Of a stretch of 64,000 bases of DNA, positions 16,227 to 59,936 are shown in pieces (the stretch's first letter is position 1; every line of letters begins with the position of its first letter). This DNA comes from Lingula anatina (taxonomy: Eukaryota > Animalia > Brachiopoda), in the NCBI GenBank assembly GCA_051362555.1, contig CM120644.1:12236567-12300566 (forward strand), given 5' to 3'. The position numbers were made by a program, and so were the translations under genes. Under the pieces are notes generated by a model, which ran no database searches, was not told the origin of the DNA, and saw only the letters and a list, made by a program, of their open reading frames with translations.

Positions 16227-16266
16227 TTCCAATGAAGCTGCTATTCAAACTTTTAATCTTCCAGTT

Positions 16267-16268
<2 letters not shown>

Positions 16269-16346
<78 letters not shown>
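16269..16346. repeat. (AT)n microsatellite inside the element (shorter version at 59879-59933)
   Basis: Visible AT run. Confidence 0.95.
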
Positions 16347-16349
<3 letters not shown>

Positions 16350-28338: not shown

Positions 28339-28376
<38 letters not shown>

Positions 28377-30938: not shown

Positions 30939-31221
30939 GAAGTTTTGAAGGCACAGTTTTCGAAGACGTTAACTCATCAAAACATATTTTTATCTCGCTT
31001 TTACCATTATATCTCACTGAAAGCAAATCGGTTAAAAATTCTGCATAAAACTAATAGAAAATGTGTTGCCTGTGATCAATCTTTATTTTTCTTTTTGGAT
31101 ATAATTGCATTTTTCACATTCATGTAATTGCGCACCGTATTTAGAATATACACGTGTCTTATCCTCTAGCAGAAGACCGTTGCCTTAGGATGACAAACCG
31201 GCGGGTGGTGCTGATTTTGGC

Positions 31222-32177
31222 TCAATCCTCGGGGAGTAAAAGACCTGGGAAATTTAAATGGATAATGTACAGACATTGTTGAACATGCACGCGCGTCGCA
31301 TTTAAAGATAAAGATGTGTTTCCTCCTTTTAAAATTTTTGATTTTGATATTTAGTATAATATTAGTAGATGAGGTGATAACAAGATATAAACAGGGAAAG
31401 AGAGCGAGAGACGGATCAAGAGAAAAAGACCGAGAGAATTCAAGAGAGAGAGAGAGAGAGGGAATGGAAATGGAGTAAGGTACCATACCGGTTGGTGCTT
31501 CCCAGTTACAACCAACTGGGCCGTTTTCTGACGGCCCTTCAGCAGAATGGCATTTGCAGGAAAATGTTGCACTGTTTTCCCAGGTTATTATCTTGCCTTG
31601 ACGTCTATGGTCGATATACAAGCACACCTGTAAACATCAAGACACACACATTTGAAATGACTCATTTACACGCAACATGTCAAAATTCATTGCCTTGGTT
31701 AATTCAAGACATTTCTGACTTTCAGTTAAAACTGAAGATCATTTATTTATACATGCATTTATTTATTAATACAATTATTCATTCAATTGTTTGTTTGTTT
31801 GTTTATCTATTTATACAATACCAGAGAGAGAGAGAGAGAGCATCTACCTGAGCCATATCCTGACACCTGCCAATTCGATCCACTCTGTGTCCATGGAAAC
31901 CACCCTCTGGCAACCACTCGCATCCAGGAGGGCCATTTTCTCCTGGACCTTCCGACGAAAAGCAACGACAGGCTGAGGTGTAGCCAATATGGTCAATTGT
32001 CAAGGTAGTCCCAGTGACATTAATGTAACGACAGATATCTTCAGTGCTGTCACACATTCGTCCCGGTCTGCCCCTGTGTCCCTTGTGACCACCGTGGTGA
32101 CCGCCACCTCTGCGTGCAGACGCCAGTTCCCCGCCAAAAATTAGGCAGAAACAGACTAGGAACAAAACGCGCGACAT
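31222..32177 (-). CDS. Small secreted Cys-rich protein A, ~163 aa; exons 32177-31848, 31627-31489, 31244-31222
   Basis: Signal-peptide-like MSRVLFLVCFCLIFGGELASA, Gly/His/Arg-rich segment, two modules C-x6-C-x20/21-CxC-x13-C-x-W. GT-AG introns are conserved with paralogue B. TATA-like TATATAAA on the - strand near 32260. Confidence 0.8.
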
Positions 32178-32744
32178 GTCGATCGGCTGTTGACTGTTTC
32201 CGTGAATAGAATCGGCGTGAAGGATTTGGTTGAAAAAATGTAGCCTTCGTGGATGATTTTATATACTCGAAGCGTATTTCCTGCTAGGGAGGTCGTCACG
32301 TTTTTACATAAAGTCTATTTAGAATAATGTAATGTGCAATTAGGGATATAAATTAATAGTTAATTTCAGTGTTAGGATAATGGATTAAAAGGAAATTACT
32401 TTTTGTTCGTAATAAAGAGTGGCCTTGGTTGGATAATACATTAATACAGAAAGTTTTCACCTCAACCCTTGGTCTTGCATATATGTTTAATTTTCTTAGA
32501 AATAATGGCAACAAAAAACCTGACTTCAGGTCTCTTAAATATGGCTACCTCAACAGAATTCAGAACAAAGCAGGCAAAAATAAATGACAGACACGCAGAA
32601 TTTTAGAAAAAATTTGCTATACTGTAGTTCCCTATCATCTGTGATATTTCTAGGGCTTTTTTTTGCGTTTTAATCTCGGATGTAGCGGGGATAAAAACGT
32701 TGTTTACTGCACTATAAATAACAGGGTGGTCACATGTGCAGGCT

Positions 32745-34442
32745 CTTTTCAGCCCCTTGTTTAATTGATAATTGATTGCAATAGCAATACAGATGTAATT
32801 TATGACTTCCCAAATCGTCATAATATTATAGGATAATTCTCAATGCCGGAATACTGTGATTATCATGATTGTATTTATTCCATTAAGAAAAAAAGTACTT
32901 ACTCGATATGTCAGGCTCACTATTAGTCAAATGACGAGAAAATTCCATATTATGCCTGACTTGGTCTCCAAACTGGTATTTTAAGCATAGGAATGATAAG
33001 TCGATTATCTTTATCTCTAACATGTCTTGTGTCTCAAGGTTTTCACATCAGTGAGAGTTTGATAATTGAAAATATTAGATGAAATGTTTACTATGAGCGT
33101 TTGAAAATGTTCCAAAGTCATATAATCTATGCCTATATATCCTGCAGAGTTCCTTATCCTTCCCAGTTCAAGACTAAAATATTCCAAATGGATTATTCTG
33201 ACAGGATACCGGTACCCTCCGACAGGGTCCCTCTGCAGAAAATTGACAAAAACTCTTTTATTTTATTTTGTAAGAATTGGTCGGATACCTGTTATTCTTG
33301 TGGCTATTAATAAACTATAGGCACATTCAGATTCACACATCACACAAGCTGGGTCAGTCCAACTCTGCAGGGATTTTTGCTAATCAGGACACGATTAATT
33401 TTCCCCTGAGGCGTGTCAGACAGTTAAGCTGATTGCACTTTAGCCAGAATCCACCCCTCTGCAACGTTGGATTGACCCAGCTAGTACATGTATGATGTGT
33501 GTATATATCTTTCCAGCCCCTTGAATGAAATTTGACATTAAATGATAATTCTTAATGCCGGAGTACTGTGGTTATCATGATAATATTTATTCCATACAGA
33601 AGAAAAAAGTACTTACTCGAAATGTCAGGATTACTATTAGGCTGTAGTAGTCGAATTTCGAGAAAATTCCATATTATGCTTGACTTGGTATTTTAAGCAT
33701 AGGAATGATAACCCGATTGTCTTTTATCTCTAACATGTCTTGTGTCTCAAGGTTTTCACATCGGTGAGAGTTGAAAATTTTAAAATATTAGATGAAAGGT
33801 ATACTGTGAGCGTTTGAAATAATGAATTAAAAGAATTAAAAGAGACAGATCGTTCAAAATATTTGTGGGAATGGTCCCTTATCCTCTAGCAGAAGACCGT
33901 TGCCTGATGAAGATAAACCGGCGGGTGGTGCTGATTTTGGATCAATCCCCGGGATTTAAAAGACCTGGGAAATGTAAATTGGTAAAGCACAGACATCGTT
34001 GAACATGCATGCGCGTCTCATTCAAAGATAAAGATTTCACATTTTAACAATTTTAATATTTAGTATAATATTAGTAGATGACTTGATAACAGAAGATATA
34101 AACAGAGAAAGAGATCGAGAGACAGATCAAGAGAAAGAGATCAATAGAGAGAGAGAGAGAGAGAAAATGGAAACTGGAGTAAGGACCATACCAGTGGTGC
34201 TTCCCAGTTACATCCAACTGGGCCGTCTTCTGACGGTCCTTCAGCAGAATGGCATTTGCAGGAAAATGTCGCACTGTTTTTCCAGGTTATTATGGTGCCT
34301 TCACGCCTGGGGTCGATAAACAAGCATACCTGTAAACACAAACATTTGAGGCGACTCATTTACAGGCAAAGTGTCAAAAAACATAGCCTTGGTCAATTCA
34401 TAGCATTTCTGACTTCAATTAAAAAAAAAACTGTAGATCATT

Positions 34443-34485
<43 letters not shown>

Positions 34486-37180
34486 TACAATTATACATTG
34501 GGTTGTTTCTTTGTTTATCTATTTATACAATACCAATGCGACTTTAAGCATTAGTATACTAGTAAGTTGCATTGGTGGATATAGGGGTTGGTGGTGGCCG
34601 GGGGGGGGGGTACTGCCCTCCTCCCTTCGATTTCCGAAAAAAGTTACACCAATGGTTCCCTTTTGAAATTAGAATTTTGACTAGCTGAATCATAATAGTT
34701 CTAAACCGTTTCAAATGGCACCGTTCGCCCTCTAAAATACCCAAAAAATTGGGGGCCTTTAAGCAGGCCCCAAACCCTGCACTAAGGGGGGAGGGGGTCG
34801 GCTTCGTATCCGCAGACCCCTCCTTCAAATAATCCTTGATTGTGTGTTGCCATTGATTACATTAAAATTTAACATTAAAAACCAGTATGAAATGTGGGAA
34901 CAAACCATCGGTGGTCTTTTCTCTGGACACATCGACTCTATACCACAGGTGCTGGAGAGAGAAAGAGAGAGGGAGAGAGAGAGAGAGAGAGCATCTACCT
35001 GATCCATATCGCGACACCTCCCAACTTGATCCGCGTGTCCATGGGCACCACCCTCTGGCTCCCAGTCGCATCCAGGTGGGCTATCTTCTCCGGGACCTTC
35101 CGACGAAAAGCAGCGGCACTTTTCGGTGAAGGTAATATGGTCAATTGTTATGACAAGCCCAGTGACATTAAAGTAACGACAGATATCTGAAATGCTGTCA
35201 CACATGCGTCCCGGTCTGTCATCTATGCGTGCAGACCCCAGTTCCCCGCCAAAAATGAGGCAAATTAAACAGACTAGGAGTATAACGCGCGACATGTCGA
35301 TCGGTTGTTGACTGTTTCCGTGAATGGAGTCAGTGTGAAGAATTTTTCTGAAAAATGTAGCTTTCTTCTCTGCTTTTATTTAATTTCAGCGAATTTCATG
35401 CCAGGGCAGTTACGTTTTTTACATGATGTCTATTTAGAATTGTGAAATGGGCAATAAGGGATATAAATTTATAGTTAATGTCAGTGTTAGGATAATTGCT
35501 TAAAAGGAAATTACTTTTTGTTTGTATTGTTGTAAACTTACAATTTCACAAATTTCAGGTAATTATTTAAGAGTAATATGATAGGGAGTTATTGAGTGTA
35601 AGATAAGATTCCTCTAAAAGAGTCAACAATTGCAGAAATTGTTTTCATGGTTGGAAAAGATGGAACATGTCAAAGTCATATAATTCGATCTGATTGGTTT
35701 ATTTCTCAATAGACTTGCAAGTTTCTGACACTTGTAAAACACATACAAACTTAGGTTGTATATGGTCCAAGCAGGAGTAATTCAAATAATATTCTTAATA
35801 TTTTAAATCGAAAACAAGTCTCTTGGAGATTGCCTAATAAGGAAATGTTGAATGGAGGAATGCAACATGAGAATGGAAAATTCCTTGTAATCAAGCAAAG
35901 ACAATGGAAAGAAAACAAGTAAATGCATGCTCAGTACAGAAAAATAGAGTATAAATACTTGTAAATTTGTAGAGAGTTGGTGAATAAATGTTTGAACGCA
36001 CTAGATTGTCGTTATTGTCACTATAAAATGAATAAAGAGTGACCTTGGTTGGATAATACAAGCATACAAAAAGGTCTCGCCTCAACCCTTGGTCTTGCAC
36101 ATGTTTAGTTTTCTTAGAAATAATAACACCAAAAAACTTGATTTCAAGTGTCTTTAATATATCTTCCTCAATAGAGTTTAGAACAAAGCAATATGCTGGG
36201 TCGTTGGCAAATGTAAATGACAGGCACGCGGAATTTTTGAATAATTTTTTTCGGTGTTAGGATAATTGCATAAAGGAAATAACTTTTTGTTCGTAATGTT
36301 TTAAAGTTAATGGCTTACACTTTCATTAATTTCAGGTAATTATGTAAGAGGAAACAAATGAGTAAAATGATAGGGTGTTATTGAGTGTAAGTTAAAATTT
36401 CTCCAAGAGTCAACAAGTGTAGAAATTGTTTTCGTTTTAGGAAAAAATGGAGCACTCAGAATTTTTGAAAAAAAAAAATTTTTATAGTTCCCTATCATCT
36501 GTAAAAATATGAAGTACATGGGTAAGCGTAAACATATATTAAAATACACGTTTCTTATCCTCTTATATTTCCCAATTCAGACCCTACAACGATAAAAGTC
36601 GTTTTGTATTGGCGGATTCACTGACTGACCATGCTTTTCGAACTAAATTATATATATTTAATCGGAAATTATAGAAAACATCGAATGCACACGCAGGGAC
36701 GGGTCAAGCAAATATTCTTGAGCAGGAAACATTGTAATTTTTTTCCAGGTGATTTCTTTGCGTGTTAATCTCGGTTTGGATACCTTTAAACTGCATTTGC
36801 CAGGATTGAAACGTTGAGTACTGCACTATGAATTACAAGAGGGTGGTAGTAGGATCTTTCCAGCCCCTTGAATGAAATTTGACATTAAATGATTTCTTAA
36901 TGCCGGAGTACTGTGATTTATTCCATACAGAAGAAAAAAGTACTTACTCGAAATGTTAGGATTACTATTAGGCTGTAGCAGTCGAATTTCGAGAAAATTC
37001 CATATTATGCTTGACTTGTTCTCCAAATTGGTATTTTAAGCATAGGAATGATAGCTCGATTATCTTTTATCTCTAACATGTCTTGTGTATCAAGGTTTTC
37101 ACGTCGGTGAGAGTTGAAAAATTGAAAATATTAGATGAAAGGTATACTGTGAACGTTTGAAATAATGAATTAAAAGAATT
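32745..37180. repeat. Mosaic local duplications around the secreted-protein pair (a ~330-bp block at ~32745-33105, ~33510-33840, ~36858-37180; promoter-side blocks duplicated at ~32330-32640 and ~35440-36500)
   Basis: Shared strings such as AATGCCGGA.TACTGTG, GAGAAAATTCCATATTATGC and TCTCTAACATGTCTTGTGT.TCAAGGTTTTCAC. Confidence 0.8.
33956..35295 (-). CDS. Small secreted Cys-rich protein B, ~147 aa, tandem paralogue of A; exons 35295-34999, 34329-34192, 33964-33956
   Basis: MSRVILLVCLICLIFGGELGSA signal-like N-terminus, the same 10 mature Cys and the same splice sites. Exon 2 is 1 nt shorter than in A, so the last exon reads VF*. Confidence 0.75.
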
Positions 37181-40407: not shown

Positions 40408-41060
40408 GCTCCAAGGCTACCAATGCAAGTCCACGTGCATCATGCAGATACAGGACCTTAGTTGGGTTATTGGCTTTTGATAAGGTACATTTCTTCTCTA
40501 CTGTTCTTCTATCTCGCTATGTTAAATTCATAATGCCAACGGCATGCACATGCGCTTTAGTAGTTTTGCAACCAACGTTAGGGAACTGAAATTTTGTTTT
40601 TAAAGCTTAAGACCTTTGGAATGAAATTGTCGACATAACTACTTGGTAATTTTCAGCAGGACTGGAGAGTCTCACTCACCTGATTATTTGGTAAATGTCT
40701 TACCTAATTTTCATACATAATGAATTTTTAGCAAGAGAAATGGCATTTTGCATGTGCTTTAAATAAAGTGTGATCTCTCTCTCTTTTTGATAATTTCTGT
40801 ATTTCTCTATTTTCTAATTAATTTAGGAATGCGAGTCTTGGATGCAGATCCAACTCCTGCTGGTTCTTTAATCAAAACTTAAGTGAATTTAATTTTTTTT
40901 TTCACAAAAATGCTCTGAGCAGTTGAAACAGCTATTCGCTGTATACTAGTACATCAGAGAAATGGAATGAGGAAATACATGTACAGGGGTGGCAAAATTA
41001 AGCAATAAAATTTTCTGCAAAATTATGTGGTTTAATTTCAGGTATCCCAATATAATCAAT
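40408..41060 (+). other. Probable non-coding 5' exons of the ROCO gene (~40408-40483, ~40657-40690, 40827-40882, then acceptor at 41042)
   Basis: Pyrimidine-rich AG acceptors paired with GT donors (tttgcag|..ag|gtacat; tttcag|..g|gtaaat; tttag|..aa|gtgaat; tttcag|). The last small exon has a stop in frame with ATG 41061 and contains upstream ATGs. Confidence 0.4.
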
Positions 41061-44000
41061 ATGTCAGCAAACAAAGATTCACCAGAATGGAAAAAGCTTG
41101 AATTGTTGCAAAAGCTGGACAAAAATCCAATATACGCTGGGTCAGATGCAGAAGAAGCAAAGGGGTGGACAAGGCTCAATCTTCAAAGAATTGGAAGAAG
41201 AATTCCACAGAGTATACGTCGATGTATTAAACTTAGAATACTTGATATATCTGGTAATGGAAACCTAGGCCATGCAACATGGGATGCAATACACGCACTA
41301 ACAGGTCTAGAGGAGTTGAATGCATCAGCATGTGGAGTCAATGTGATCTCAATGAAATTCGATCAGCTGGCAAACCTAATTAAATTAGATCTTTCAAAAA
41401 ACAACTTGAAAGAATTCCCATCGTCAATATTTGAACTGAAGTCATTGGAAAAGCTTAACCTGGGCTATAACAACATCGCCACAGTTCCTCCACAGGCAAA
41501 GCAACTGAAACATCTTAAAAGCCTTGACCTGTCCCGAAACGAGCTGGAAGACTTCCCAGCACCAATATATGAGCTGGAGACACTAGAAGAGGTTAATGTG
41601 AGCTTTAACAACATTGCGGCAATTCTGCCACAGGTGGAAAAAATGAAGAATCTGAAGGTGCTAAAGCTGTTCAAGAACAACCTGAAAGAATTCCCAATGC
41701 CGGTGTGTGCACTTAAGACACTAGAAGAAGTTGACCTGAGCTTTTCCAACATCAGAACAACCCCATCAAAGGTAAAGCAATTAAAAAATCTGAAGATTTT
41801 GAAACTCTCTAACAACAATCTGGATGAATTCCCAATACCAGCATGCGAACTGGAGGCACTAGAAGAGGTTGACCTGGACAACAACAACATCACCACAATT
41901 CCGCCACAGGTTAAACAACTGAAGAATCTTAAGGTACTAAAGCTGTTAAAGAACAGACTGCGAGAATTCCCAAAACCAGTATGTGAGCTGGATACACTAG
42001 AAGAGGTCGACATGAGCCATAACAACATAACAACAGTGCAACCAGAGGTAAAACAGTTGAAAAAGCTGAAGAAGCTAAGGCTGAAAGACAACGACCTGAA
42101 AGAATTTCCAATAGCAGTATGTGAATTGGAGGCACTAGAAGAGGTCGGAATGAGCGATAATAAGATCACCACAGTTCCAACAGAGGTGATTCAACTGAAG
42201 AATTTGAAGTCTCTAAATCTGCAGAAGAACAAATTGGACCAATTTCCAATTTCAGTATGTCAGCTTATGACACTAGAAGAGGTTATCTTATCCAATAACA
42301 AGATCCCCACTGTTCCATGGTTGGTAAAACAACTGAAGAACCTGAAGATACTAAGGCTACAGTTCAACAAACTGAATGAATTTCCGGAACCGATATGTGG
42401 GATGGATTCTCTGGAGGAGGTCAACCTGGGCAACAACAGGATCTCCATTGTTCCATGGTGGGTAAAACAACTGAGGAACCTGAAGATACTAAGGCTACAT
42501 TGCAACAAACTGAATGAATTTCCGGGACCGATATGTGGGATGGAGTCTCTGGAGGAGGTTAACTTGTCCAATAACCAGATCCTGACAATTCCACTAGAAG
42601 CAAAACAACTTAAAAATCTGAAGGAACTAAGGTTGCGCAACAACAATTTGGTAAATATTCCTTTATCGTTGTGTGAGCTGAAGACACTAGAAGAGATTTA
42701 CCTGGACAATAACAAGATCAGTGCAGTCCCTCCACAAATAGAACAACTGAAAAAACTCAGGATACTAGGGCTGTGTAAGAACAATATAGATGAATTTCCA
42801 AAGCCTGTATGTGAACTGGAAACACTAGAAGTAGTTGACCTGGAAGGTAACAGCATCACCACAATTCCGCCAGAGGTTCGACAACTGAAGAATCTTAAGG
42901 TACTTAAGCTGAAAAACAACAGGCTACGAGAATTCCCAAAACCAGTATGTGAGCTGGATACACTAGAAGAGATTGACATGAGCCATAACAACATAACAAC
43001 ATTGCGACCAGAGGTAAAACAGTTGAAAAAGCTGAAGAAACTAAGACTGAACCACAACCATCTGAACGAATTTCCTGTTACACTATGTGAGCTGGAACCA
43101 CTAGAAGAGGTTTACTTGGACCATAACAACATAACAACAGTGCGACCTGAGGTAAAACAGCTGAAAAAGCTGAAGAAACTAAGACTGAGCCACAACAACC
43201 TGAAAGAATTTCCAGCTACACTATATAAACTGGAACCACTAGAAGAGGTTGACTTGGACCATAACAACATCACTATGGTTTCTTCAGAGGTTAAAAATCT
43301 ACAGAACCTTAAGATATTACGGATGTGCAACAACGGGCTGGATAAATTCCCTGTACCATTATGTAAGCTGGAGACACTAGAAGAGGCTTACTTGGACCAT
43401 AACAACATCACCACAGTCCCATCACAGGTAAAGCAACTGAAGAATTTGAGAAAAATATGGATGCGCAGCAACAATCTGGTCGAATTCCCAGTAACATTAT
43501 GTGAGCTGGAGAAAATTAAAGGAGTTTTCTTGGACAATAACAAGATCACCGCTCTCCCAGCTCTGACAACACTCAGCAGAATACGAAGTTTAAGTCTTAA
43601 GTCTAACAGTATTACTAAGATTTCAGAGGAAATAGGCAAAATGATGCAGCACTTAGAATCTCTTAACTTAGAAAACAACAAGTTGGAAAAATTACCTGAA
43701 GGGATGCGATTCCTATCATCTCTAAATGAGTTTTGCCTGGGGGGTAACACACTGATTCAGCCACCGGAAGAAGTAGTCAAAGAAGGCAGAGAGGCAGTGT
43801 TCCGATATCTTGAAGATCTGGCACAAACCAGAGCAGAGAAAGCATCAAGACTTCAGGTTCAGGTGCTAGGAGAAACTTGTGTAGGAAAAACAAGTCTGGT
43901 GGGAACACTCACAACGGGAGAGCCCTACTTGACCCTTGAAGCAGACAGAACGCATGTCCTGCAGCAAAAATCATGGGTGCCACAGGAGGATATCTTCTTG

Positions 44001-47000
44001 AATATCAATGACTTCGGTGGTCATTCAGTCTACAAAGTTGCACACAACTTTTTCTTGACCAAAAATGCATTATCTTTGGTTGTTTTTGATATCTGTTTGA
44101 ACATACCTGAGAAGTACCATCGTGATATAGGAACTTGGATTGAAAACATTTATTACAGATCACCAGAATCAAGAATTTTACTAGTAGGAACTCACGCAGA
44201 CTTCCTTAGTGTTAAAGAAATACAGACAAAGAAGGAAGATATCAAGGGAGCGTGGAAAGCACAATTAGAAAAGAGACAATCCAGATTGAAAGCAGCCTGT
44301 GACACGTTGCGTAAAAAAATGAGAAAACAGAAAGAGCTTACAGAGGCGTATCGTACTAAATTAGATCACATAAGAAAATCAATGAAAAACCCACCACAGG
44401 TTTGTGAAGACATATTTGTCACAAGTTCCAAATCACAATATGGAATTGAGAACCTTAAAAATGAATTGATCCGAATAGCAAAGCAAAAGGCCATCATATT
44501 ACCAGGATCATGGTTGAAAATAGTAGAGAACATCGAAAAAGCTAAACACAGTGGGACAGAATCTGTTTTGTCCATGGATTCCATTGGAGAAATAAACGAA
44601 GAACACGAACCTCCCCCTAAAGTTGCCAGAATTGCAGAGGCATCAACCAGCAAAGAACGAGACAAATCAGAGAGTCAGAGGATGGAAGATGTAATTTCGT
44701 TTCTGCATGATACTGGCGTGGTTTTGTGGTTCAAAGCCAATCCTTTGCTGCGACAGGTCATTTTTCACAAACAGGATGTGCTCATAAACCTCTTGAAGGC
44801 AGTCCTCCGCCATGATCTTGCATCCATCCTCGTATATGATACTAAACCCTTCAGTGAGAGATTTAGCGGACCGGGGTTTGAATCTGCAAAACAGGATGCG
44901 CTGAAACGAGGTATTTTGAGCACAACATTGCTTGAATGTTTGTGGGAGAAGTATGACCTAGGGACACCAGGATTTTTAGCAATGCAGAAATTACTGAAGG
45001 ACTTCGAGGTGTGCTATGTGGTTAAAGGCGAGGAAGAAGATATGATTCATTTTCCGTGGATCTTGGAAGAAGGTCGCCCAAAAGATCTTTCCTCCAAATG
45101 GCAGACTACACCCCTTCCCCGAGATGCATTGCAAATTTCCACCGAGGTCCATTTTGCCGGCCCCTGCCCAATAGGGCTGTATGAAACGGCTGCTGTACAT
45201 CTCCATGAACACTTGAAAAACTTCAAATCAACACGTATAGACTGGAAGGATGGTTTCTATGCCCAGCTTGGTGTTTATCTCCGAATGACACTTGAAAGGG
45301 AATGTGTAGGAAACCCAGCCAATGGAATACTAAGGCTTTCCATGCGGGGGGACAATCTTCACCAACTCAAAGAGTCTTACCTTAAGTTATTCAAGGACTT
45401 AACACAGTTGATAGAAAGAGAATGCCCTGGTGCAACTCGAGTTGAATATGTGGTGTGTCCACATTGTTTACATAATGAGGAAACATCTCCATCACTTTTT
45501 GAAATACCAGAGCGATTTCTTAATGTTTCACTGGAAGATAGGGCATGTTATCACCCTTGCCCAGAGGAAGATCCAAGTTTCATGGCCTCGGCGGATTTCT
45601 ATTATCCTGTGACGGAGGGTACGTTAATATTACAGTCAGTTATAAGCGGTAGTAATGTTATCCAAAATGTATGAAATTGACACATTATCAGTTGGCAGAA
45701 AACTTTGGAACTGAACATTCTACATTGTTTATTTTTAAAATAGTTTATTTAATATAACATGCTATTATTTTGGTAGGTGTCATGACCGATCTCCACAGTA
45801 CAACCCTGAGGATACATGGCGTACAAATGTATAAAGACATCAGTGGTCCATCCCGGCCCCTCCAGGAGATAATGAATCGACTTGTGAAAGAAAAGATACT
45901 CACAGAACAAGACCGGAGATCCATCCTAGATCCAGATGGAACAATCAATCTTTTCAGCATCCTTAAAGGAAAGAGGGACTCTGCGTTCTACATCTTCTGT
46001 GGAGCCTTACATGACAGTGGGAAACATGAAACTGCGAGTCTTCTGATGTAGGTTGACGTCTTGTTCCTACCAGCTATACTGAGTTTTAATGTGTTTATCA
46101 AGTTAGATATTTCCTGGGTTATTTTTCCATTTTTTTTTTTATTTACAGGCAATTGGTTCACATTTAATTATACCGGATTGGTTACTGACGTATCTTGTAA
46201 ATATAATTCAATCCATTATATGCCACCAGAAGACTCCCCCAGAAATGTTTGCTTGAAAGCAGTAACCAATTTCCAATTATTTCATATTTCACTAAAACTG
46301 CTTTCTTTATGTCAAATTTCTTTTATTTTGAATACATATTATGAACTTTATTGTAGGTTATCGGATTTTGCAGTGGGCCTTGGGGAAGATGGTCTCAGAG
46401 AAGCGCTGACAACTTTGTTGCACGAGAGTGTACTAACACAGGAGGAGGTGAACTCTGTGCTTTATAAATCAAGGCAACAGCTTTCTCGTAAGGTGGGAGT
46501 TCTTCTTCAAAAATTGAGTGACAAAGTTCGCTTTTTACGGGGTGAGCCCTTTTCTAATTTTAAGAAAGTTGTATATGAGATTGAAAGGAAACAGCGACTG
46601 GAAAAGATGTACCCTTCAAACTCACCTGAGCGTAATAAGCTGGAATTGCTTCAAAAGCTCGACAGAGACCCAAAATATGCTGATCCAGATTCGGAAGAAA
46701 AAGAGATATGGAAAAGCCTAAATCTACAAAGAATTGGAACCAGAATACCACAGAGTATATCTCGCTGTGTCAACATTGAAAGACTTGATATATCCGGTAA
46801 TGGAACCCTAGACAAGGCAACATGGGAGGCCATACACACACCAAGAGTTCTAGAAGAGTTAAAAGCATCTGAGTGTGGAGTAAATGCAGCCTCTTTAAAA
46901 ATCGATCATCTGACAAGCCTAAAAAAATTAGAACTGTCCAAGAACCACTTGAATGAATTACCATTATCAATATTTACGCTTGAAAGACTGATAGAGCTTG

Positions 47001-50000
47001 ACCTTAGCCATAACAACATCACCACCATTCCACCAGAGGTGCAACGACTAAAGAATCTGAAGAAATTAAACATGTCCCACAACAGTTTGGAAGAAATCCA
47101 GACTCCAGTATGTGAGCTGGAGACATTAGAAGAGCTCAACCTGAGTCATAACAAAATTGCCACAGTTCCACCAGAGATAAAACAACTGAGGAGTTTGAAA
47201 GAAATTAACCTATCCAACAACAAGCTGAACGAATTCCCGATCACTTTATTTGAGCTGGAAACACTAAAATCTGTTTGGATGGATCATAACTACATAACCA
47301 AATTCCCGGTCTTGACAAAAACCAGCAAAATAGGCTTTCTTAGTCTAAATTCTAACAATATTATTGATGTTTCTGAGAAAATAGCTGATATGATGATGAA
47401 CCTCGTCACTCTTGACTTAGGAAACAACAAATTGAAGAGATTGCCCGTGCAAATGCATCTCCTGTCATCTCTACGTGAACTTCACCTGACAGGCAACAAA
47501 TTAATTCAGCCGCCACAAGATGTAGCAAACGAGGGCAAGGAGCCGGTGTTCCGGTATCTTGTAGATCTAGCAAAAAGTTCAGCACAGGAAGCATCGATGC
47601 TCCAGGTCCAAGTGCTAGGAGAAACTTGTGCAGGGAAGACAAGTCTGGTGGGAACACTCACAAGGGGAGAAAGCTGCTTGACCCCCGAAGAAAACAGAAC
47701 ACATGTCCTGCAGCAACAATCATGGATGCCACAACAGGATGTTATCTTGAATATCAATGACTTTGGTGGTCATCCAGTCTACAAAACTGCATACATTTTC
47801 TTTTTGACCAAAGAATCCTTGTCCTTGGTTGTATTCAATATCTGCTTAGACATAGTAAAGGAGTACCATAGTGTTATAGGAACATGGATTGACAAAATCT
47901 ATTACCGATCACCAGAATCAAGAATTTTACTAGTAGGAACTCATGCAGACCTCGTTACTGTTGAAAAGATACAGACAAAGAAGGAAGATATCATGAGAGC
48001 ATGGAAAGTACAACTGAAAAAGAGACAATCCAGCTTGAAAGCAGCCTATGACAACTTGGATGAAAAAGTGAGAAAGCAGAAAGTTCTTACAGATGTGTAT
48101 CGTACTAAGTTGGATCACATAAGAAAATCAATGAAAAATCCACCAAAGGTTTGTGAAGACATATTTGTCACAAGTTCGAAATCAATATATGGAATCGAAG
48201 ACCTAAAAAATGAATTAATCCGAATAGCAAAGCAAAAGGTCATCATATTACCAGGATCATGGTTGACAATTGTAGAGAACATTGAAAAAGCTAAACACAG
48301 TGGAACAGAATCTGTATTGCTCATGGATTCCATTGGAGAAATGAGCAAAGATCACGAACCTCCCCCTAAAGTCGCCAGAATTGAAGAGGCATCAACCAGC
48401 AAAGAACAAGACAAAGCAGAGTGTCAGAGGATAGAAGATGTCATTTCGTTTCTGCATGAAACTGGTATGGTTTTGTGGTTCAGAGTAAACCCTTTGCTGC
48501 GACAGTTCATCTTTCACAAGCCAGATGTGGTTATAAACATATTAAAGGCCGTCCTCCGTCGTGACCTTAAATCCGTCCTAGTATATGATACTCAACCCTT
48601 CTGTGCCAGGTTCAACAGACAGAAGTTTGAATCTGCAAAACAGGATGTGCTGAAACGAGGTATTTTGAGCACAACATTACTTGAATGTTTGTGGGAGAAG
48701 TATGACTTAGGGACACCAGGCTTTTGTGCAGTGCAGGAGTTACTGGAGCACTTTGAGGTGTGCCATGTTGTCAAAGGTGAGAAAGAAGACAAATTTCATT
48801 TCCCCTGGATCTTGGAAGAAGGTCGCCCAAAAGATCTTTCTTCCAAATGGCAGACGAGACCACTTCCCCGAGACGCACTTCAAATTTCCACTGAAGTTCA
48901 TTTTGCTGGTCCCTGCCCAACTGGACTGTATGAAATGGCTGCTGTCCATTTTCATGGATATTTGGGAAACTTCAAATCAACACGTAGAGATTGGAAAGAT
49001 GGTTTCTATGTCCAGCTTGGTGATTGCCTCAGAATGACACTTGAAAGGGAATGTGTGGGAAACGGAATACTAAAGCTTACTATGCAGGGGGATGATCTTA
49101 ACCAACTCAAAGAGTCTTGCCTTAAGGTATTCAAGGACTTGGCACGATTGATAGAAAGAGAAAGTCCTGGTGCCACTCGAGATGAGTACGTGGTGTGTCC
49201 GCACTGTGTTCATGAAGAAAAAACACCTCCACCTCTTTTTGAAATACCAGAGCAATTTCTCAATGTTCCATTGGAAAATCAGGCATGCTATCACCCTTGT
49301 CCAGAGGAAGAGCCAAGTTTTATGGCCTCAGCAGATTACTATTACCCAGTAACTGAGGGTAAGTTTATATCACTATTAGTTATGGAGTAGTATGTTAATT
49401 GTGCTGGAATTACACAAGATGGGTTAAGTTGTCAAGTTTGAGTGTGAAAGAAAACGGTCAAATTATATCTTTTATTACACATAGCACATTTGTTCACTTG
49501 ATATCAGTGGGACATGAGCTTGTATCTTGGTTACTGTTCCATATAGGTAACATGACCGATCTCCACCGTACGGCCCTAAGGATACATGGTGTGCAATTGT
49601 TGAAAAACATCAGCGGTCGATTTAGGCATCTCTGCGAGATATTGAGTCGCCTTGTGAGAGCTGGGATATTCACAGAGGAAGACCGGAGATCCATCCTAGA
49701 GCCAGATGGAACAATCAATCTTTTCAGCATTCTTAAAAGAAAGAGGGACTCGGCGTTCTACATCTTCTGTGGAGCTATACATGACAGTGGGAACCACGAA
49801 ACTGCCAGCCTCCTCAGGTATATATATATTTTTTCCAAGTTTTGTTAGTTTCGTATTAAACACTATCACCTAAATAGGTAACAGCGCCTTTTTAGTATTA
49901 ACGTTGCATTTGTTGGGTTGTTAAATAAATGTCATTGCGTCTGTCACATACCATTATCAGTTTGATTGTTTTAGTATCTTGAAAATATCCCACACTCTGT

Positions 50001-52324
50001 TGCTTTCTAGCAGACTTGGAAAATAACCTAGGTAAGAAAATTGACTGAAAGCAGCAACTGATTTCTAATTACAACACAATGCACTGAAATACATACATTT
50101 TGCAACCCAATCTAGATTACCAGATTTGGCAGTGGACCTTGGAGAAGATGGTCTTAAAGCAGTGCTGACAACTTTAATGTCTGAGGGTGTCCTAACACAG
50201 AAGGAGGTGAAGGCCGTGCTTCATGAATCACAGCGACAGGTGTCTCGCAGGATGGAAGTTCTTCTTCAAAAGTTAAGCGACAAAGTACCCTATTTATGTC
50301 ATGACCCCTTTTCAAAGTTCAAGAAAGCTGTGTATGAGATTGAAAGGGAAAGGCGTTTGGGTAAGGAACTATTTTCTCTAAATTAAAGTAACATAATTTA
50401 GAGACATTTAATTAACATTATGTTTGCCTTTGTTAACAGCACTATTTTTAAAAGGCTAAATTATTTATTTTTTATCAATTTATCCTCCATGTTGGCACCA
50501 TACAGTTAAGGGTCATGTAACATCACTAGAGAATGTACACCAACATAAATAAGGGTACGCCATGCAATTGTTTTCATTTAAAATTTGCACACTTATCATT
50601 TGATGCTAAAAGTCTGGAGAAGGGTTTTGAATGAATTACGGTATTATCATGGAGAATATTGGTGCTGTAAATGTTACCCGAATTGAGCTACGAAATACGG
50701 AATGAGATACGAATAAAGGGAACCGGAGAAGATCAGCATTGGTCAGAATTGTGCCGGAAGTGACGTGCAGTGGTGTTAGAAACGAAGCTGAGTGGTCATT
50801 TTAACATAGAGGTGAACGGCAGTGAAGACGGGTTGTCGGAGGAAAAAGAAGTTTTCTAAACAACATGGTAAGATAACACTTTTTCTTTACGCATTTTGGG
50901 CAGAGAAAACTTGTAGAAATAATAAATGCATGATATGAAAACGTGACACGGAACTTGAAGGTGCAAAATCGTGCTTAATTTGCGGTCAACTTGTTTAGAA
51001 ATAAATGCTGCGTCGACCGCCAGCGCGACAAAAAGGGTAAAGGGGAAATAATTCCCGGGAGTCTATAAATCGTTGTCATGTGGAAATTTGGCATTAATAT
51101 AATCCGATATGTCCATATCTAAGTATTTTTGGGTGTTTTATGGTATGGGCTGCAATTACAACGATGTTTTAGAGGTCTTGAAGGACCTTGTGAAAACCAG
51201 GAAGTAGTTCGTAACTAACAAGTGGAATGTACCGATCTCCGACTGCTGTGCACAGCTGTATCTTTTTTTTAATATATTGACGAATTTTTAGATCTTTATA
51301 TGTCCATCTGGCATGAAATTCCACACACATGATCACACTGATATACCTTTTACACTGGGGAAGGCGCTAATCAGTGACAAATGCCAAGACAAAGGTGACA
51401 TTCTGACAGCCTCTTATCTGAGTTAAAAATCACTGACAAAAGAGACTGGCAATCAATTTCCTCAGGCTGGCAATCATTAGCCTATAGAAATTGGTCATGT
51501 TACATGTTATCTACCTGTGAGAATCGTTTTACCAACTGAGTATTGCATAATAATGTCAATTATTAGTACTTTGAGCTAGTCTTAATTACCTGTCAGCTCA
51601 CCTGAATTCTCTTTTTGTCTTTTTGGGAAGATCTTGTCAGTGAAATGTTTTATTTGTCCTGTGACAAAAATTCGTCAATATATTGAAAAAAAGATACAGC
51701 TGTGCACAGCAGTCGGAGATCGGTACATTTCACTTGTTAGTTACGAACTACTTCCTTGTTTTCACAAGGTCCTTCAAGACCTCTAAAACTTCGTTCTAAT
51801 TGCAGCTCATACACCCCAAAGATACTTAGATATGGACATATCGGATTATATTAATGCCAAATTTCCACATGGCAACGATTTACAGCCTCCCGGGAATTAT
51901 TTTCCATTTACACTCTTTGTCGCAATGGCGGTCGATGCAGCATTCATTTTAAAACAAGTTGACCGCCAATTAAGCACGATTTTGCACCTTCAAGTTCCGT
52001 GTCACGTTTTCATATCATGCATTTATTATTTCTACAAGTTTTCTCTGCCCAAAATGCGTAAAGAAAAAGTGTTATCTTACCATGTTGTTTAGAAAACTTC
52101 TTTTTCCTCCGACAACCCGTCTTCACTGCCGTTCACCTCTATGTTAAAATGACCACTCAGCTTCGTTTCTAACACCACTGCACGTCACTTCCGGCACAAT
52201 TCTGACCAATGCTGATCTTCTCCGGTTCCCTTTATTGTTTCCCCTTTTCTGTATTTTAGGATCAATCGTGAGTTTGAACACAGAGGTGCTTTACAGCAGA
52301 GAGCAGAGACAAGAAACCACGTGA
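41061..52324 (+). CDS. Tandem double ROCO protein (MFHAS1/MASL1-like units), ~2803 aa: 38 LRR-ROC-COR-CARD-CARD-12 LRR-ROC-COR-CARD-CARD; exons 41061-45618, 45777-46047, 46357-49358, 49547-49817, 50116-50360, 52260-52324
   Basis: Each unit has 23-aa LRRs, a P-loop GETC(V/A)GKTS, G2 Thr (RTHV), G3 DFGG, G4 THAD and a COR region ending CPHC..CYHPC. CARD-like exons follow (LRIHG..IL.RLV...ILT.ED...L..IL..KRDSAFYIFC.A(L/I)). Intron phases 1,2,1,2,1 all match; the first CARD exon is 271 nt in both units; total 8412 nt. The last exon is the least certain. Confidence 0.85.
50712..52236. mobile_element. 1.5-kb foldback non-autonomous DNA transposon with ~575-bp inverted arms (50712-51289 and 51666-52236)
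   Basis: AATAAAGGGAACCGGAGAAGATCAGCATTGG ... CCAATGCTGATCTTCTCCGGTTCCCTTTATT. Arms pair throughout, almost perfectly in the outer ~270 bp; ~376-bp spacer; possible TA TSD; AGGG/CCCT ends reminiscent of Kolobok. Confidence 0.9.
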
Positions 52325-54618: not shown

Positions 54619-57600
54619 AAAAATCATCGTGGTTAGTATTAACTAGAAATACTACTTAAGCTAATGTAAGTATTACTTCAGCTAATTGTGCAATGGAATC
54701 ATACCGTGCAGCTCACTACAATCCAGTGACTCTCCTACTTCATTATCATAAGTTCCAAATTTCCAGTTTACATTTTCTGTTAGATAACTATTGCTAGATG
54801 TGTTGTACGAGTCGACACTAATAGCAGCAACCTTATATTTCTGGCTTTCATCTTGGATGCGAAACAGGTTCCATCTGACGTAGTAGGTGTTTCCATCACA
54901 AGACAGCATGTCAATCTGCATTGAGTAATCCCCTTGATTGGTTAATGCGTAGAGAGCATCGTTTCCAAGCCAAAACTGCTCACGTGGGTCACCAAACCCA
55001 ACTTTATATGCATTCCAATTTCTGTGGAAAGACATGGTGCTGTTGTATCGACTCATCACAACAATCCATCCGTCGTCGCAATAAACTTCTTTTTGACCAA
55101 AGCCATCTATATCAATGGACGCTAAACCTGAACCCTCTGGAAAGGCACGATAATTTCGTTCAAAAGGGCGTTTAAAGTTACATTTGAACTGAACATCGGT
55201 GGAGCGGGGATTCGCATATAAACCACTTCTACTCGTTTCTTATATGACTCAAATAAGGTCGACATACCAAGGTATAAATTGAATGAATCACTCAATCAGC
55301 CATAAAATAGCTTTAGACTGCTCCTTTCTTTAAATTCTTGGTCAGAAATCTAACCTACTTATGTGACCCACTTACTGTCCCATGTATATACAGCAAACAA
55401 AGCTAGCAGAAAAATCCATAATTTTACAGGTAATATTAAAAGTGCCTTTTGGTAATTCTCTTAGTTATACTATTCGAAACTACACACACTGGACAATAGA
55501 AGTGTCACCCCTACTGAACCAATACTTTGGGGGAGATAAATGACTGTGGAATGATAAGCTCCTGGTATCATTTTACTAACATCAAATTTCACAAAAAAAC
55601 CAACAATACAATTCCATGGTACAGCGGTTTTATACTCATTAGTCACATTATAAGTAGACCAGGCATTATAACTTTGATTACTCTGATTCAGGGGGTGACA
55701 CTTCTATTGCCCAGTGTGTGTATATGCTGGCATTTGGTTGGTTTTTGAGGCAAATAAATTGACTTCATATGCATCTTTAAACTCTCTATCCTTACTTTAC
55801 TTACAGCTTTTACACTCTACCATTTATGGTGTGTTCAAAAATAAAAAAAAAAAAACGAATTCAAATTTATCACGACCATACAGCCCCTGGTACCTACCAA
55901 GATCATTGCAATCCTTTTCCACCTGCAAAATAATGTATTTTTAAATACATTCAATTCAGGTTGAGACTTTATTTAGCAAAGGAAAATTCTGTAATTTTCA
56001 TCACTTTCCCTTTATCACCAAGCTACTTCGTATTAAAACCCATTGACTAAATTACGATCTTTAAAACCATTTTTTAGTTCACAAAGATGGAGACTGGTGA
56101 ATGTCGCTCGTTGCCATACAGTGTACAAACAGGAATTCACAATTCAAAACTTATTCCGATATACGTGTAGATCGCAATTTTCTCAACAGTATGATACATG
56201 TATACCCCGGCAAATAAGGCAAAATTCTTAAAATTCCCAGGATAAAAAAAAGTTATTTTACAATATAAAATTCTTACAAACATCTTGAAGAAAAGTCTGC
56301 GTTCTGTATATCTAGCAATTGAATAACTCGGTTTTATGCCTCGCAATAATACAAGTGCGTAAGGAATACTGCAACACATGTATCTACTCTAAAGATTTGA
56401 CATTTTCAAAAGAAAGGCATTGTTTTCCGTTAGGGATGGGTATCTGTCTTTGAAACTGCTGCACAGGTTTACCTACCTGTTATACGTAAAGTACGCACCG
56501 CCTTCATATTGTAATAGTGTGACACGATCGAGTGCCTTTCGGTAATTCAGCTCACAGTCCCCTATAAATATAATGGACGGAAGCTATAGCCGATGCCTAT
56601 TTGTATCCCATGTAGGTTTTCCGAATATCGAGATTTTGGTTTTGGTTTACGTGTACATTGATTTAAAGCTACTGACAATTTGATTCTGCAAGTCATGCGT
56701 GGCCCAAAGGAGATTCATGTATTTGTAGTACGCGGAGGAACAAACGCTATGAGGTAGGTGACATTGCTGATGCTAATTGTGTGTAAATTTGGTGACATTT
56801 GGTAGGGTCTTTTCGATTTAATGGACATTTTTTACCTCTTGGGAAATCACATTGGAACATCAACATAGAGAGGGGGGTACATGTTATATTGATAAATCGT
56901 TTTAAAATGGATATAGTAAACGGTATTTTGTATTTCCGCACCATAATTCAAGTACGATATGATATCTGTACATGTATAACAAACACTGTTAATAACAGTT
57001 ATACATATACGAGGTGACCATTTGTAAATAAAAGCACTTGGAACTGGAGGTGGAACAACCTTTTTAACGAATGGTGTGCCGGGTATTTATGCATGACCCG
57101 GTGACATATCAGACGAAGAGCCAGAGTAAATTGCAAGTGCATTTATCAAATAAATGAAGTATAAAGTCTGAAAAAATCGCCGGGTCATGTACATAATATA
57201 CCTTGTCTCCTGCATTGTTTTGCATTAATTTAGTTAAATTAAATTAGTTTAAGACTTAAAATCAATAAAATCACAAATCTACAAATATTACAAACATTTT
57301 TTAGACTCCGAAATTTTACGGCAATACGAAAATTAACGTGCAGTTTTTGATTTTTTTATTCCAGTTTCACTTTTTTACTTTTTACGCTGGTTTGTACAGT
57401 GAAGCCTGGGAACTGAAAATTAATGTTGTATGCGTTTGATATATATGATCAAGCTAATGAACAGCAGCAGCTGATGTAACAATATTAAATGTATTCCCAT
57501 TATACAACAGTTAACATTGATTTCACAATGTTCAATGGGTTCCCATAATACAACAGCAACGGTTGTCACAATAGTGAATATATTCCCATTATATGACAGT

Positions 57601-57950: not shown

Positions 57951-59035
57951 GTTTCGGAGGCCTGCTGCTGATTACCATTTGCTTCTTAATTAATTTATTG
58001 TAAAACAGGTGCCCTCCGGTGACGTCATCACGCAGAGCTGTGTCCTTGCTTTACCAATGTAACCCGTGCTTTCAGGATCTAATAATATTTGCATTATACG
58101 CGATGAGTATTTTAAAAGTTGGATTTCTCCTTTGGCCGATGCAGATTTGCTATTAACATGTTATCTTCTCGATTTCAGTCTCTGTCACGGAGACAATGAG
58201 TTTGGTGGCGTCAGTGCACGGCACTGCTAAGTTTTGACCTTCAGTAGAAGTTTTGATCACAATCGATATATTTGTCAGGCGGTTGAATGATTGACAAAGA
58301 CACATTTTGGTTCTCAATCAGCCTTACTTTCTTGAGATGCATAAACTCTGGTATACTTATGTAGTGTTTCATTGTCTCAGCGCGTCTAGTTTGTGTATGA
58401 AAGTGTCTTTTGAATGTGTGGAGTGTGCCTTGAGTCTCTCTTTGAATAGCGGTGTTATAACCCTATTTATACTGTATAGAGAGTCTTTCTATTCCAAATA
58501 GAGACTATGGGTTCTACATACTAGTAAATCTAATAATACAACCACAACATTGAAATATAAACCGCTTTGATATTCTCTTCTGAACATTAAACATTGGTTC
58601 TCGTTAGAAAAACTATGTGTCTGGCTAAGTTATAAATTACAAACTCGAAACATATGTAATAAATGAAGATTTAAAGAAAATAAATGTATATACTGTATAA
58701 ACTGACCAAGAGACAGCTGGTTTAAAATACCTGCTGAAGGTAACAGTGGTGGGCAATCCTGAATGACACGATAATTTAATAAAGACTACTTTTAGTAATA
58801 CCGAAAGGAGACACGTTAATAAGCAATCTTTGACAAGAACTCGTTAAAGCTAAGTACATGTTGTTTTGCAGTATTTACGATCTCTAAAATTGTTTAGTTC
58901 ACGAAGATGAAAACTACATGGTGAAAATCACTTGTTGCCGTACAAACAGGAATTCAGAATACAAAACTAATTTCATTATAGACTGCAATTTTGCCAAAAG
59001 GTTGATATACCCTAGCGATTAAGCCAAAAATAATA

Positions 59036-59876
59036 AACAAGGCAGCAAAGCTGTCAAATGTACAGACAAAAAACAGAAAATAAAGATGCAAAAAAGGTCA
59101 TTTTGTCAATTTTGATGCAATAATAAATAATGCTTATAATAGCACTGTCAGTCAACACTGAATTTTAATCTTGTACAACGGGTAACATGGTCAATAACAG
59201 GAGCAGACCCAGAGATATTTTCTGACAGTATTCCAAAGTATCTATGTTGATCCATCCTCCATTTTGATGGTCTTCCAACAGAAAAAAATAGATACCAGTC
59301 AATATTAACTTAATAACCTGACTGTCTTCCGGAAGACCCAGAAGATGGTCTCAATCCACCCCTTCAATAAGATTACAGTTTCAGGACCATGAGAGTTCAA
59401 ATTCACATTATGAAAGTCTCAATATTTGAAAAATGATGACAGTGCATAAAATAATATTACATAATGTTTAAAGACATAAAAAACAATACAACTGCTTATG
59501 TAGAAATACAGAAAATGTGCAGAGCCCCAGGCAGATGAGAGTTAAAAGTCACAAATGCAAGTGTTTGAGAAAAAATTATAAAGGAAAACAACAAAACTAG
59601 AAAAGCACTTTGAGAGTGCAGACCTCTGCCAAGGCAGCAATTGTTGATTATTATTGATAATTGATTGATTATTGATCCAGACCACCACCAAAAATTAATC
59701 ATTGTCCTCTTTGGCCCACTTCCGACAGTTCCTGAAAATTTCTGCAAAATTGGTCCATAACTTTTTGTGTTATGTGGATGACAGACAAACAGGGGTGAAA
59801 ATATAACCCCCTTGGCAGAGCTTGAGGTAAATATAATTCCAATGAAGATGCTATTCAAACTTTTAATCTTCCAGTT

Positions 59877-59936
<60 letters not shown>

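What the first reader, a model, noticed from the sequence alone, without database searches (positions are those of the whole stretch)
41061..52324. Two complete ROCO receptors fused into one ~2800-aa chain (LRR-ROC-COR-2xCARD twice)
Seen: the 1561-aa and 1109-aa ORFs join through phase-matched introns (45619-45776, 46048-46356). The second CARD-like domain of unit 1 runs with no stop or intron into the N-terminus of unit 2 (..EIERKQRLEK-MYPSNSPERNKLELLQKLD, paralogous to MSANKDSPEWKKLELLQKLD). Both ROC domains keep G1-G4 motifs. Established: characterised ROCO proteins (LRRK1/2, DAPK1, MFHAS1, bacterial Roco) carry one ROC-COR and several dimerise via COR; CARDs mediate death/immune signalling. 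Inference: a covalent pseudo-heterodimeric GTPase sensor with two different LRR arms and four CARDs, possibly an NLR-like 'paired receptor in one chain'. I know of no described example, but cannot search.
Basis: partly seen in the sequence, partly recalled or inferred. Interest (0 to 1): 0.9.

Follow-up and report, generated by a model that had tools for sequence, protein, structure and literature searches.

The report
Double ROCO receptor in one chain
A brachiopod (lamp shell) gene holds two complete copies of a LRRK2-type GTPase receptor, each with its own cell-death adaptor domains, in one unbroken reading frame, so it likely makes a single tethered pair of immune-type sensors, although no transcript across the joint has been seen yet.

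Summary
Six GT-AG exons give a stop-free 2803-aa frame: LRR(~35)-ROC-COR-CARD-CARD, then LRR(~9)-ROC-COR-CARD-CARD. Both ROC domains keep G1-G5. The gene belongs to the expanded ROCO family of Lingula anatina. It is not an assembly chimera at the joint: DNA contigs from two studies bridge it, one sample in two gap-free versions. Two RefSeq Lingula models (LOC106170298, LOC106170294) are different sequences with the same open joint, and in one the unit-2 start Met is Thr. All fused units form one clade, so one duplication-fusion arose and then diversified by recombination; dN/dS between the units is 0.25-0.50. Not shown: a transcript across intron 2 or the joint. Expression was very low in 6 RNA runs and depth dips at the joint; in-frame skipping could also give a single-unit 1712-aa protein. 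Best reading: a likely cytosolic immune/death sensor whose two GTPase switches are tethered; their pairing is inferred only. Two Roc-COR modules also occur in one amphioxus model, so the doubling is rare, not unique. No description found in 8 paper searches. New variant of a known kind; interest 0.6.

The parts
41061..45618 (+). Coding exon 1: unit-1 helical cap, about 35 LRRs, ROC1, COR1 (aa 1-1519). A splice acceptor lies 19 nt upstream of the ATG (AG at 41040-41041), so an unplaced upstream exon is likely
41367..43757 (+). LRR arm 1: 32 repeats in strict 23-aa register, alternating basic and acidic, plus three irregular ones
43848..44492 (+). ROC1 GTPase domain; G1 at 43869, G3 at 44010, G4 at 44190, G5 at 44418
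   Evidence: Pfam Roc 46.1 bits, cut-off 27
44493..45617 (+). COR1 (COR-A, COR-B, cysteine-rich tail)
   Evidence: Pfam COR-A E 4e-8, COR-B E 1e-4, both below cut-off
45619..45776 (+). Intron 1, GT-AG, phase 1; also the point where identity to LOC106170298 drops from about 100% to 80-92%
   Evidence: splice position seen in 14 paralog-like RNA reads
45777..46047 (+). Exon 2: CARDa of unit 1
   Evidence: Pfam CARD E 7.7e-5; six-helix model pLDDT 89.8; Apaf-1 CARD Z 13.4, rmsd 1.5 over 83 residues
46048..46356 (+). Intron 2, GT-AG, phase 2; in-frame TAG at 46049-46051 if retained; a second strong acceptor before 46149 would give a stop after five codons
   Evidence: no RNA depth at 46121-46342 in 2 of 2 runs
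46357..49358 (+). Exon 3, the fusion exon: CARDb of unit 1 (46357-46606), joint at ATG 46607, unit-2 cap, about 9 LRRs, ROC2 (47597-48241), COR2 (48242-49357)
   Evidence: DNA contigs bridge the joint
46595..46625 (+). The joint: the place where unit 2 has its last splice donor reads AA instead of GT in unit 1, and the unit-2 start follows two codons later
49547..49817 (+). Exon 4: CARDa of unit 2 (after intron 3, 49359-49546, phase 1)
50116..50360 (+). Exon 5: CARDb of unit 2 (after intron 4, 49818-50115, phase 2)
   Evidence: Pfam CARD 24.0 bits, cut-off 23.9
50712..52236 (.). Foldback-type repeat inside intron 5 (50361-52259): inverted arms of about 570 nt, 96% complementary
52260..52324 (+). 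Predicted last exon, 21 codons and TGA; a like tail ends LOC106170298. Read-through of exon 5 would instead end the chain at 2790 aa

Best explanation
This brachiopod gene holds two complete LRR-ROC-COR-CARD-CARD units in one open frame, made by a likely tandem duplication in which the first copy lost its last splice donor and stop, and it likely makes one 2803-aa cytosolic immune or death sensor whose two GTPase switches are predicted to pair within the chain. Proposed working: in the GDP or empty state the tether would hold the two ROC-COR modules together through COR-B, as in the CtRoco and LRRK2 dimers, keeping the receptor off; a ligand at either LRR arm would favour GTP loading and opening; the two CARD pairs would then recruit a CARD-bearing caspase or adaptor. 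Shown: frame, domains, motifs, family, conserved open joint. Inferred: translation as one chain (about 0.75), immune/death role (about 0.7), pairing inside the chain (about 0.4).
For: Stop-free 2803 aa over six GT-AG exons. Joint bridged by contigs of two samples from two studies: X2 46335-47178 with 4 differences; X5 46394-46672 in two versions with 0 and 23 differences, no gaps; one of the two may be the window's source. Two RefSeq Lingula models carry the same joint, same length, 11 to 26 differences in 103 aa; in XP_013405562.1 the joint Met is Thr and the next Met is 33 residues on. All units of fused genes form one clade apart from seven single-unit paralogs (ROC and COR 100/100). dN/dS between units 0.25-0.50 in 7 of 7 segments, every bootstrap interval below 1, CARDb 0.46. 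RNA depth 1-3 on the internal CARDb at 86% likeness, where this gene's own terminal CARDb is at most 81% alike over 100 nt. Model of exon 3 matches LRRK1, CtRoco and LRRK2 (E 1e-30 to 1e-25). CARDa is most like the Apaf-1 CARD. LRR surface positions 10-11 vary most, pN at or above pS (pairs not independent). CtRoco is a COR-B dimer when empty and opens on GTP; LRRK2 uses a like interface (PMC11052575, sections 3 and 6).
Against: No read joint across intron 2 and no proof of a read across 46607 in 6 of 9 listed RNA runs, each read only to 6-30%. Depth dips in the joint bin: X18 about 1.0 against 3.4 and 4.2 beside it, X19 0.04 against 1.2 and 1.0; clipping of diverged paralog reads could explain it, separate transcripts could too. 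At 95% likeness only scattered reads lie on the coding exons, depth at most 0.5. In-frame skipping gives a 1712-aa single-unit protein by two routes; intron 2 offers two early stops. This copy keeps an ATG at the joint. Pairwise dN/dS cannot say which unit was constrained. The RefSeq models are predictions, both cut short at the N-terminus, and their RNA support was not visible. CARDb1 is weak in Pfam (E 0.09) and poorly modelled (pLDDT 50-80). No ligand, GTPase activity or partner was tested.
Confidence: 0.45

Rival explanations
1. The chain is real, but the two units work as beads on a string: each dimerises with other molecules or not at all, and the fusion only secures co-expression, avidity and four CARDs per molecule.
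For: The fusion evidence is the same as for the best reading. The joint is only about five residues between two helices in the model, so two CARDs must span the whole distance from COR1 to the start of LRR arm 2, which may not allow pairing. Unit 2 swaps ROC-COR types between copies (55-69% to the other second units), which a fixed heterodimer interface might not tolerate.
Against: Tethering raises local concentration, and the solved ROCO dimers use COR-B (PMC11052575). In this copy the two COR domains are 81% identical, close enough for a pseudo-symmetric interface.
Confidence: 0.3
2. The locus mostly yields single-unit proteins: exon skipping (1-2-5-6 or 1-4-5-6, 1712 aa), termination in intron 2, or a separate start for unit 2; the double chain is minor or absent.
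For: Phases allow skipping; TAG inside the intron-2 donor and a strong inner acceptor; RNA dip at the joint; ATG kept at the joint here and in XP_013405557.1.
Against: Exon 3 is open for 1000 codons under purifying selection and can only be entered through CARDb1 or an inner start; one paralog lacks the Met; no AATAAA or ATTAAA in introns 1 or 2; no RNA depth in intron 2. A neutral 83-codon CARDb would stay open with probability 0.2 at 0.05 and 0.05 at 0.1 changes per site under my assumed indel rate: modest support only.
Confidence: 0.2
3. The 2803-aa model is an assembly chimera of paralogs or haplotypes, or a decaying duplicate.
For: The copy is a mosaic of the two RefSeq models plus a third ROC-COR type. 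No listed contig piece spans 47543-47633, the second switch point (91 pieces were not shown). Very low expression.
Against: The joint and the intron-1 switch are bridged by contigs with 0-4 differences; a chimera of double-unit paralogs would still be double; no stop or frameshift in 8.4 kb of coding sequence; motifs intact.
Confidence: 0.05

Closest known systems
Lingula anatina single-unit LRR-Roc-COR-CARD(-CARD) proteins, named 'MFHAS1 homolog' in RefSeq (e.g. XP_013416217.1)
   Same: Same domain order per unit, about 50% identity over ROC-COR, same cysteine-rich COR tail and tandem CARD-like end.
   Different: One unit per chain; the fused genes form their own clade.
Lingula LOC106170298 (XP_013405562.1) and LOC106170294 (XP_013405557.1), uncharacterised RefSeq models
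   Same: Same double architecture and open joint; unit-1 LRR-ROC-COR differs from LOC106170298 at 3 of 1325 residues.
   Different: Different second units (ROC 63-69%, COR 55-62% to this one); both models lack their N-terminus; no description found.
Group-1 ROCO proteins: human MFHAS1/MASL1 and Chlorobium CtRoco (PMC6337361 passages; PMC11052575 sections 3, 6)
   Same: LRR-Roc-COR core without kinase; fold matches 6HLU.
   Different: One Roc-COR per chain, no CARD pair; the dimer is non-covalent.
Trichoplax ROCO family (PMC4104024 passages) and brown-algal ROCO immune candidates (PMC11378527, PMC3341825 passages)
   Same: Lineage-specific expansion; Roc-COR joined to CARD or death domains; three Trichoplax models have an extra Ras-like domain before ROC.
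   Different: The passages read mention no second Roc-COR unit; algal LRRs are one exon each, here they lie in one exon.
Branchiostoma belcheri XP_019630255.1 (P0033)
   Same: Two Roc and two COR-A domains in one predicted chain.
   Different: The second Roc-COR is a distant subtype with no LRR arm of its own, and the chain ends in a GT4 glycosyltransferase; not a whole-unit duplication; a gene prediction only.
NLRs with doubled switch, e.g. wheat WTN1 with tandem NB-ARC (bioRxiv 10.1101/2024.08.30.610185, passages); AP-GTPase counter-invader systems (PMC8195603 section 15)
   Same: Sensor repeat, nucleotide switch and effector logic; two switch domains in one chain.
   Different: STAND ATPase rather than Roc GTPase; WTN1 doubles the switch only.

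Membership tests
ROCO GTPases | Roc domain | tested here: met
   Pfam PF08477 46.1 and 39.7 bits, cut-off 27; best solved relatives by sequence are LRRK2 ROC domains, E 3e-13.
ROCO GTPases | COR directly after Roc | tested here: met
   COR-A E 4e-8 and 6e-7, COR-B E 1e-4 and 4e-4, all under the curated cut-offs; the unit-2 model aligns over LRR-Roc-COR with LRRK1, CtRoco, LRRK2.
ROCO GTPases | Intact G1-G5 motifs | tested here: met
   All five motifs found twice, aligned to LRRK2.
ROCO GTPases | GTP binding and hydrolysis; nucleotide-dependent COR-B dimer | not testable with these tools
   Needs purified protein.
Group-1 ROCO (MFHAS1-like) | N-terminal LRR, no kinase | tested here: met
   LRR hits and no kinase hit in 5 of 5 exon products scanned; the 21-codon last exon was not scanned.
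Group-1 ROCO (MFHAS1-like) | Orthology with vertebrate MFHAS1 | not tested
   Names come from RefSeq labels of paralogs; no tree with vertebrate MFHAS1 was built.
CARD (death-fold) | Six-helix CARD fold, CARDa | tested here: met
   CARDa1 model has six helices, pLDDT 89.8; Apaf-1 CARD TM 0.84, Z 13.4, rmsd 1.5 over 83. CARDa2 is 77% identical and was not folded.
CARD (death-fold) | Six-helix CARD fold, CARDb | tested here: inconclusive
   Pfam 24.0 bits (cut-off 23.9) for CARDb2, E 0.09 for CARDb1, about half of the profile; CARDb1 modelled at pLDDT 50-80 as three long helices.
NLR / paired NLR | NACHT or NB-ARC STAND ATPase | tested here: not met
   The switch is a Roc GTPase; no NACHT or NB-ARC hit. 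It may work like an NLR; it is not one.

The most novel reading that the evidence does not exclude
Lingula has evolved a covalent ROCO pseudo-heterodimer: a paired immune receptor in one chain, in which a long and a short LRR arm gate a tethered two-GTPase switch that exposes Apaf-1-like CARD pairs to build a caspase-activating platform, with recombination between tandem copies swapping arms, switches and CARDs. It would be a natural single-chain version of the LRRK2-type dimer.
Probability: 0.3. Interest if true: 0.82.

Novelty: new variant of a known kind. Interest (0 to 1): 0.6.

Why it matters
Whether ROCO GTPases such as LRRK2 are switched by dimerisation or by coming apart is a long debate. 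A natural chain with two intact, different ROC-COR modules would let each active site be disabled separately in a defined pair, which homodimers do not allow. It would also add to the case that animals use ROCO GTPases as NLR-like receptors wired to apoptosome-type CARDs. Limits: it is so far one lineage's duplication, seen in gene models, in an animal with few laboratory tools.

Tried and rejected
No whole genome is held for this window, so copy number and neighbours could not be read. COR1 with COR2 in complex prediction gave no answer (score 0.00 twice, alignments not used, controls not folded): no evidence either way. A third unit upstream: tblastn found no ROCO match in the window outside 41000-52324. 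The N-terminus comparison was out of frame and is discarded; one search gives the value. Rfam found nothing in the window. Foldseek gave no CARD match at E 0.001 or better (best 0.02). Word-based searches of long proteins are weak (1 of 2897 and 9 of 2872 candidates). Paper search for 'two Roc-COR', 'two RocCOR', 'two ROCO domains' found no occurrence among the 25 listed of 84 papers, most of them unrelated. Gerdol et al. 2018 on Lingula immunity (PMID 29278680) is not held and may cover these genes; the source-data files of PMC8195603 were not opened. Earlier scan notes: nothing by sequence, place or the eight-word query; 8 of 107 ROCO notes shown, none with two Roc-COR. P0133 and P0142 looked like double COR but are split single domains.
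Full report
Observation. Exons 41061-45618, 45777-46047, 46357-49358, 49547-49817, 50116-50360 and 52260-52324 all have GT-AG ends and matching phases, and give 2803 codons without a stop. Pfam places LRR, Roc, COR-A and COR-B in both large exons and CARD in the four small domains; Roc passes its cut-off twice, COR and three of the four CARDs score below theirs. G1-G5 occur twice. The units are 77% identical in ROC, 81% in COR, 77% and 62% in the two CARDs; the LRR arms hold about 35 and about 9 repeats. At the joint, the position of unit 2's last donor reads AA instead of GT, and the unit-2 start follows two codons later. That looks like a tandem duplication that lost the tail of copy 1 and the promoter of copy 2 (inference).

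Origin and family. The nearest named proteins are all from Lingula anatina. Neither is this sequence. Unit-1 LRR-ROC-COR differs from LOC106170298 at 3 of 1325 residues, identity falls to 80-92% right after intron 1, the unit-2 cap and LRRs match LOC106170294 at 96-97%, and the unit-2 ROC-COR is closer to this gene's own unit 1 than to either second unit. Trees per segment put all units of fused genes in one clade apart from seven single-unit paralogs (ROC and COR 100/100), with first units together and this unit 2 unresolved. So one fusion arose and recombination has shuffled parts since. The joint has the same length and no stop in 3 of 3 versions, which differ at 11, 24 and 26 of 103 residues. 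In LOC106170298 the Met at the joint is Thr and the next Met is 33 residues later, so that second unit has no start of its own at this place.

Is it an artefact? I laid 2 of 10 DNA holders. X2 has one contig over 46335-47178 with 4 differences; X5 has two over 46394-46672 with 0 and 23 differences and no gaps. They come from two studies, and one may be the window's source. Intron 1 and its flanks are bridged too. No listed piece covers 47543-47633, and 91 pieces were not shown. dN/dS between the units is 0.25-0.50 in 7 of 7 segments at dS 0.3-0.7, with every bootstrap interval below 1; a pairwise value cannot assign the constraint to one unit. A neutral simulation makes an open internal CARDb unlikely only at higher divergence (0.2 at 0.05 changes per site, 0.05 at 0.1, 0.003 at 0.2, with an indel rate I assumed).

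Is it transcribed as one chain? Not shown. At 95% likeness, four runs gave only scattered sense reads on the coding exons, nearly all in X17, depth at most 0.5 on both large exons, and no joints in the gene. At 86% likeness, X18 and X19 gave 139 and 106 reads, mostly from relatives. Fourteen reads splice at the intron-1 position but carry letters of another copy. Intron 2 has no depth at 46121-46342. The internal CARDb has depth 1-3, which this gene's own terminal CARDb cannot supply (at most 81% over 100 nt), though other copies might. Depth dips in the joint bin (X18 about 1.0 against 3.4 and 4.2; X19 0.04 against 1.2 and 1.0). Clipping of diverged reads could cause this, since LOC106170298 differs at 8 of 15 residues there, but separate transcripts could as well. 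Escape routes exist: a TAG inside the intron-2 donor, an inner acceptor that stops after five codons, and two in-frame skips that give a 1712-aa single-unit protein. I put translation of the double chain, at least as one isoform, at about 0.75.

Structure. The exon-3 model (pLDDT 86, pTM 0.78) matches LRRK1, CtRoco and LRRK2 over LRR-Roc-COR. The joint is a loop of about five residues between helices, and CARDb1 is poorly modelled. CARDa1 alone folds as six helices and ranks the Apaf-1 CARD first in two searches (TM 0.84, E 0.02; Z 13.4, rmsd 1.5 over 83); helical bundles can reach such Z by arrangement alone, but nearly all top rows are death-fold domains. In LRR arm 1 the framework is fixed and positions 10-11 after the strand vary most (pN 0.63 and 0.50 against pS 0.41 and 0.46), a hint of a diversifying binding face.

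Mechanism. From papers: CtRoco is a dimer when empty, opens on GTP, and shares its COR-B interface with LRRK2 dimers (PMC11052575, abstract and sections 3 and 6). LRR-Roc-COR proteins with variable effectors are predicted counter-invader receptors (PMC8195603, section 15), and algal and placozoan expansions are read as immune candidates (PMC11378527, PMC3341825, PMC4104024; passages). My inference: the tether favours a closed pair of the two ROC-COR modules; ligand at either arm favours GTP and opening; the CARD pairs then recruit a caspase or adaptor. CARD-CARD recruitment of caspase-9 by Apaf-1 is established knowledge; its use here is untested. The main rival keeps the chain but not the pairing; geometry could not be checked.

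How rare? A ROC-COR profile found 3944 representatives at E 0.001 or better, of which the best 150 were returned. Among 168 stored proteins, two Roc and two COR occur in LOC106170298 and in one amphioxus model, XP_019630255.1, whose second module is a distant subtype without its own LRR arm; LOC106170294 has one Roc and two COR. The survey covers near relatives only. Eight paper searches showed no description of a double ROCO; 'Lingula anatina' with 'ROCO' gave one paper, whose passages do not treat it. PMC6337361 and PMC6321704 were read as passages without a mention. The Lingula immunity paper of Gerdol et al. 2018 could not be read. A doubled switch is known in the wheat NLR WTN1 (passages).

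Verdict. A real, conserved, apparently undescribed whole-unit doubling of a ROCO receptor in Lingula: a new variant of a known kind. The DNA case is strong, the transcript is not yet seen, and the tethered-dimer mechanism is an inference. Interest 0.6.

Noticed in passing
window 50712-52236: Foldback-type element in intron 5 with arms of about 570 nt at 96%. RNA reads laid on it show many A>G and T>C differences (X11 19 and 30 places), which would fit A-to-I editing of double-stranded RNA, but loose ends show that the reads come from other copies and no matched DNA was compared.
   Followed up: partly
window 15428-18965 and 59028-62545: A 3.5-kb direct repeat, 95% identical, 43.6 kb apart, with a 161-162-nt tandem array, flanks the gene; it could mediate copy-number change of the locus.
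   Followed up: no
window 28251-28664 (+): Exon-sized match to the uracil-DNA glycosylase superfamily, E 3e-5.
   Followed up: no
window 54685-55239 (-): Fibrinogen C-terminal domain exon, E 6e-26: a fibrinogen-related gene 2.4 kb downstream on the other strand; such proteins are often invertebrate immune lectins (own knowledge).
   Followed up: no
window 31158-37180: Several blocks duplicated at about 80% identity without a Pfam match; also tandem arrays at 8809-10223 (146 nt) and 62979-64000 (373 nt).
   Followed up: no
P0033 (XP_019630255.1, Branchiostoma belcheri): 3062-aa model with LRR-Roc-COR, a second Roc-COR of another subtype and a C-terminal GT4 glycosyltransferase; a second, independent double-switch candidate.
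   Followed up: partly
P0001 and P0002, second units: COR-A carries a 70-75-residue insertion made of repeats of a low-complexity linker, absent from this window's units.
   Followed up: no
P0003-P0009, P0013-P0020, P0161-P0163: At least 18 single-unit Lingula ROCO models, most named MFHAS1-like, while PMC4104024 states that only deuterostomes have MFHAS1; orthology was not tested.
   Followed up: no
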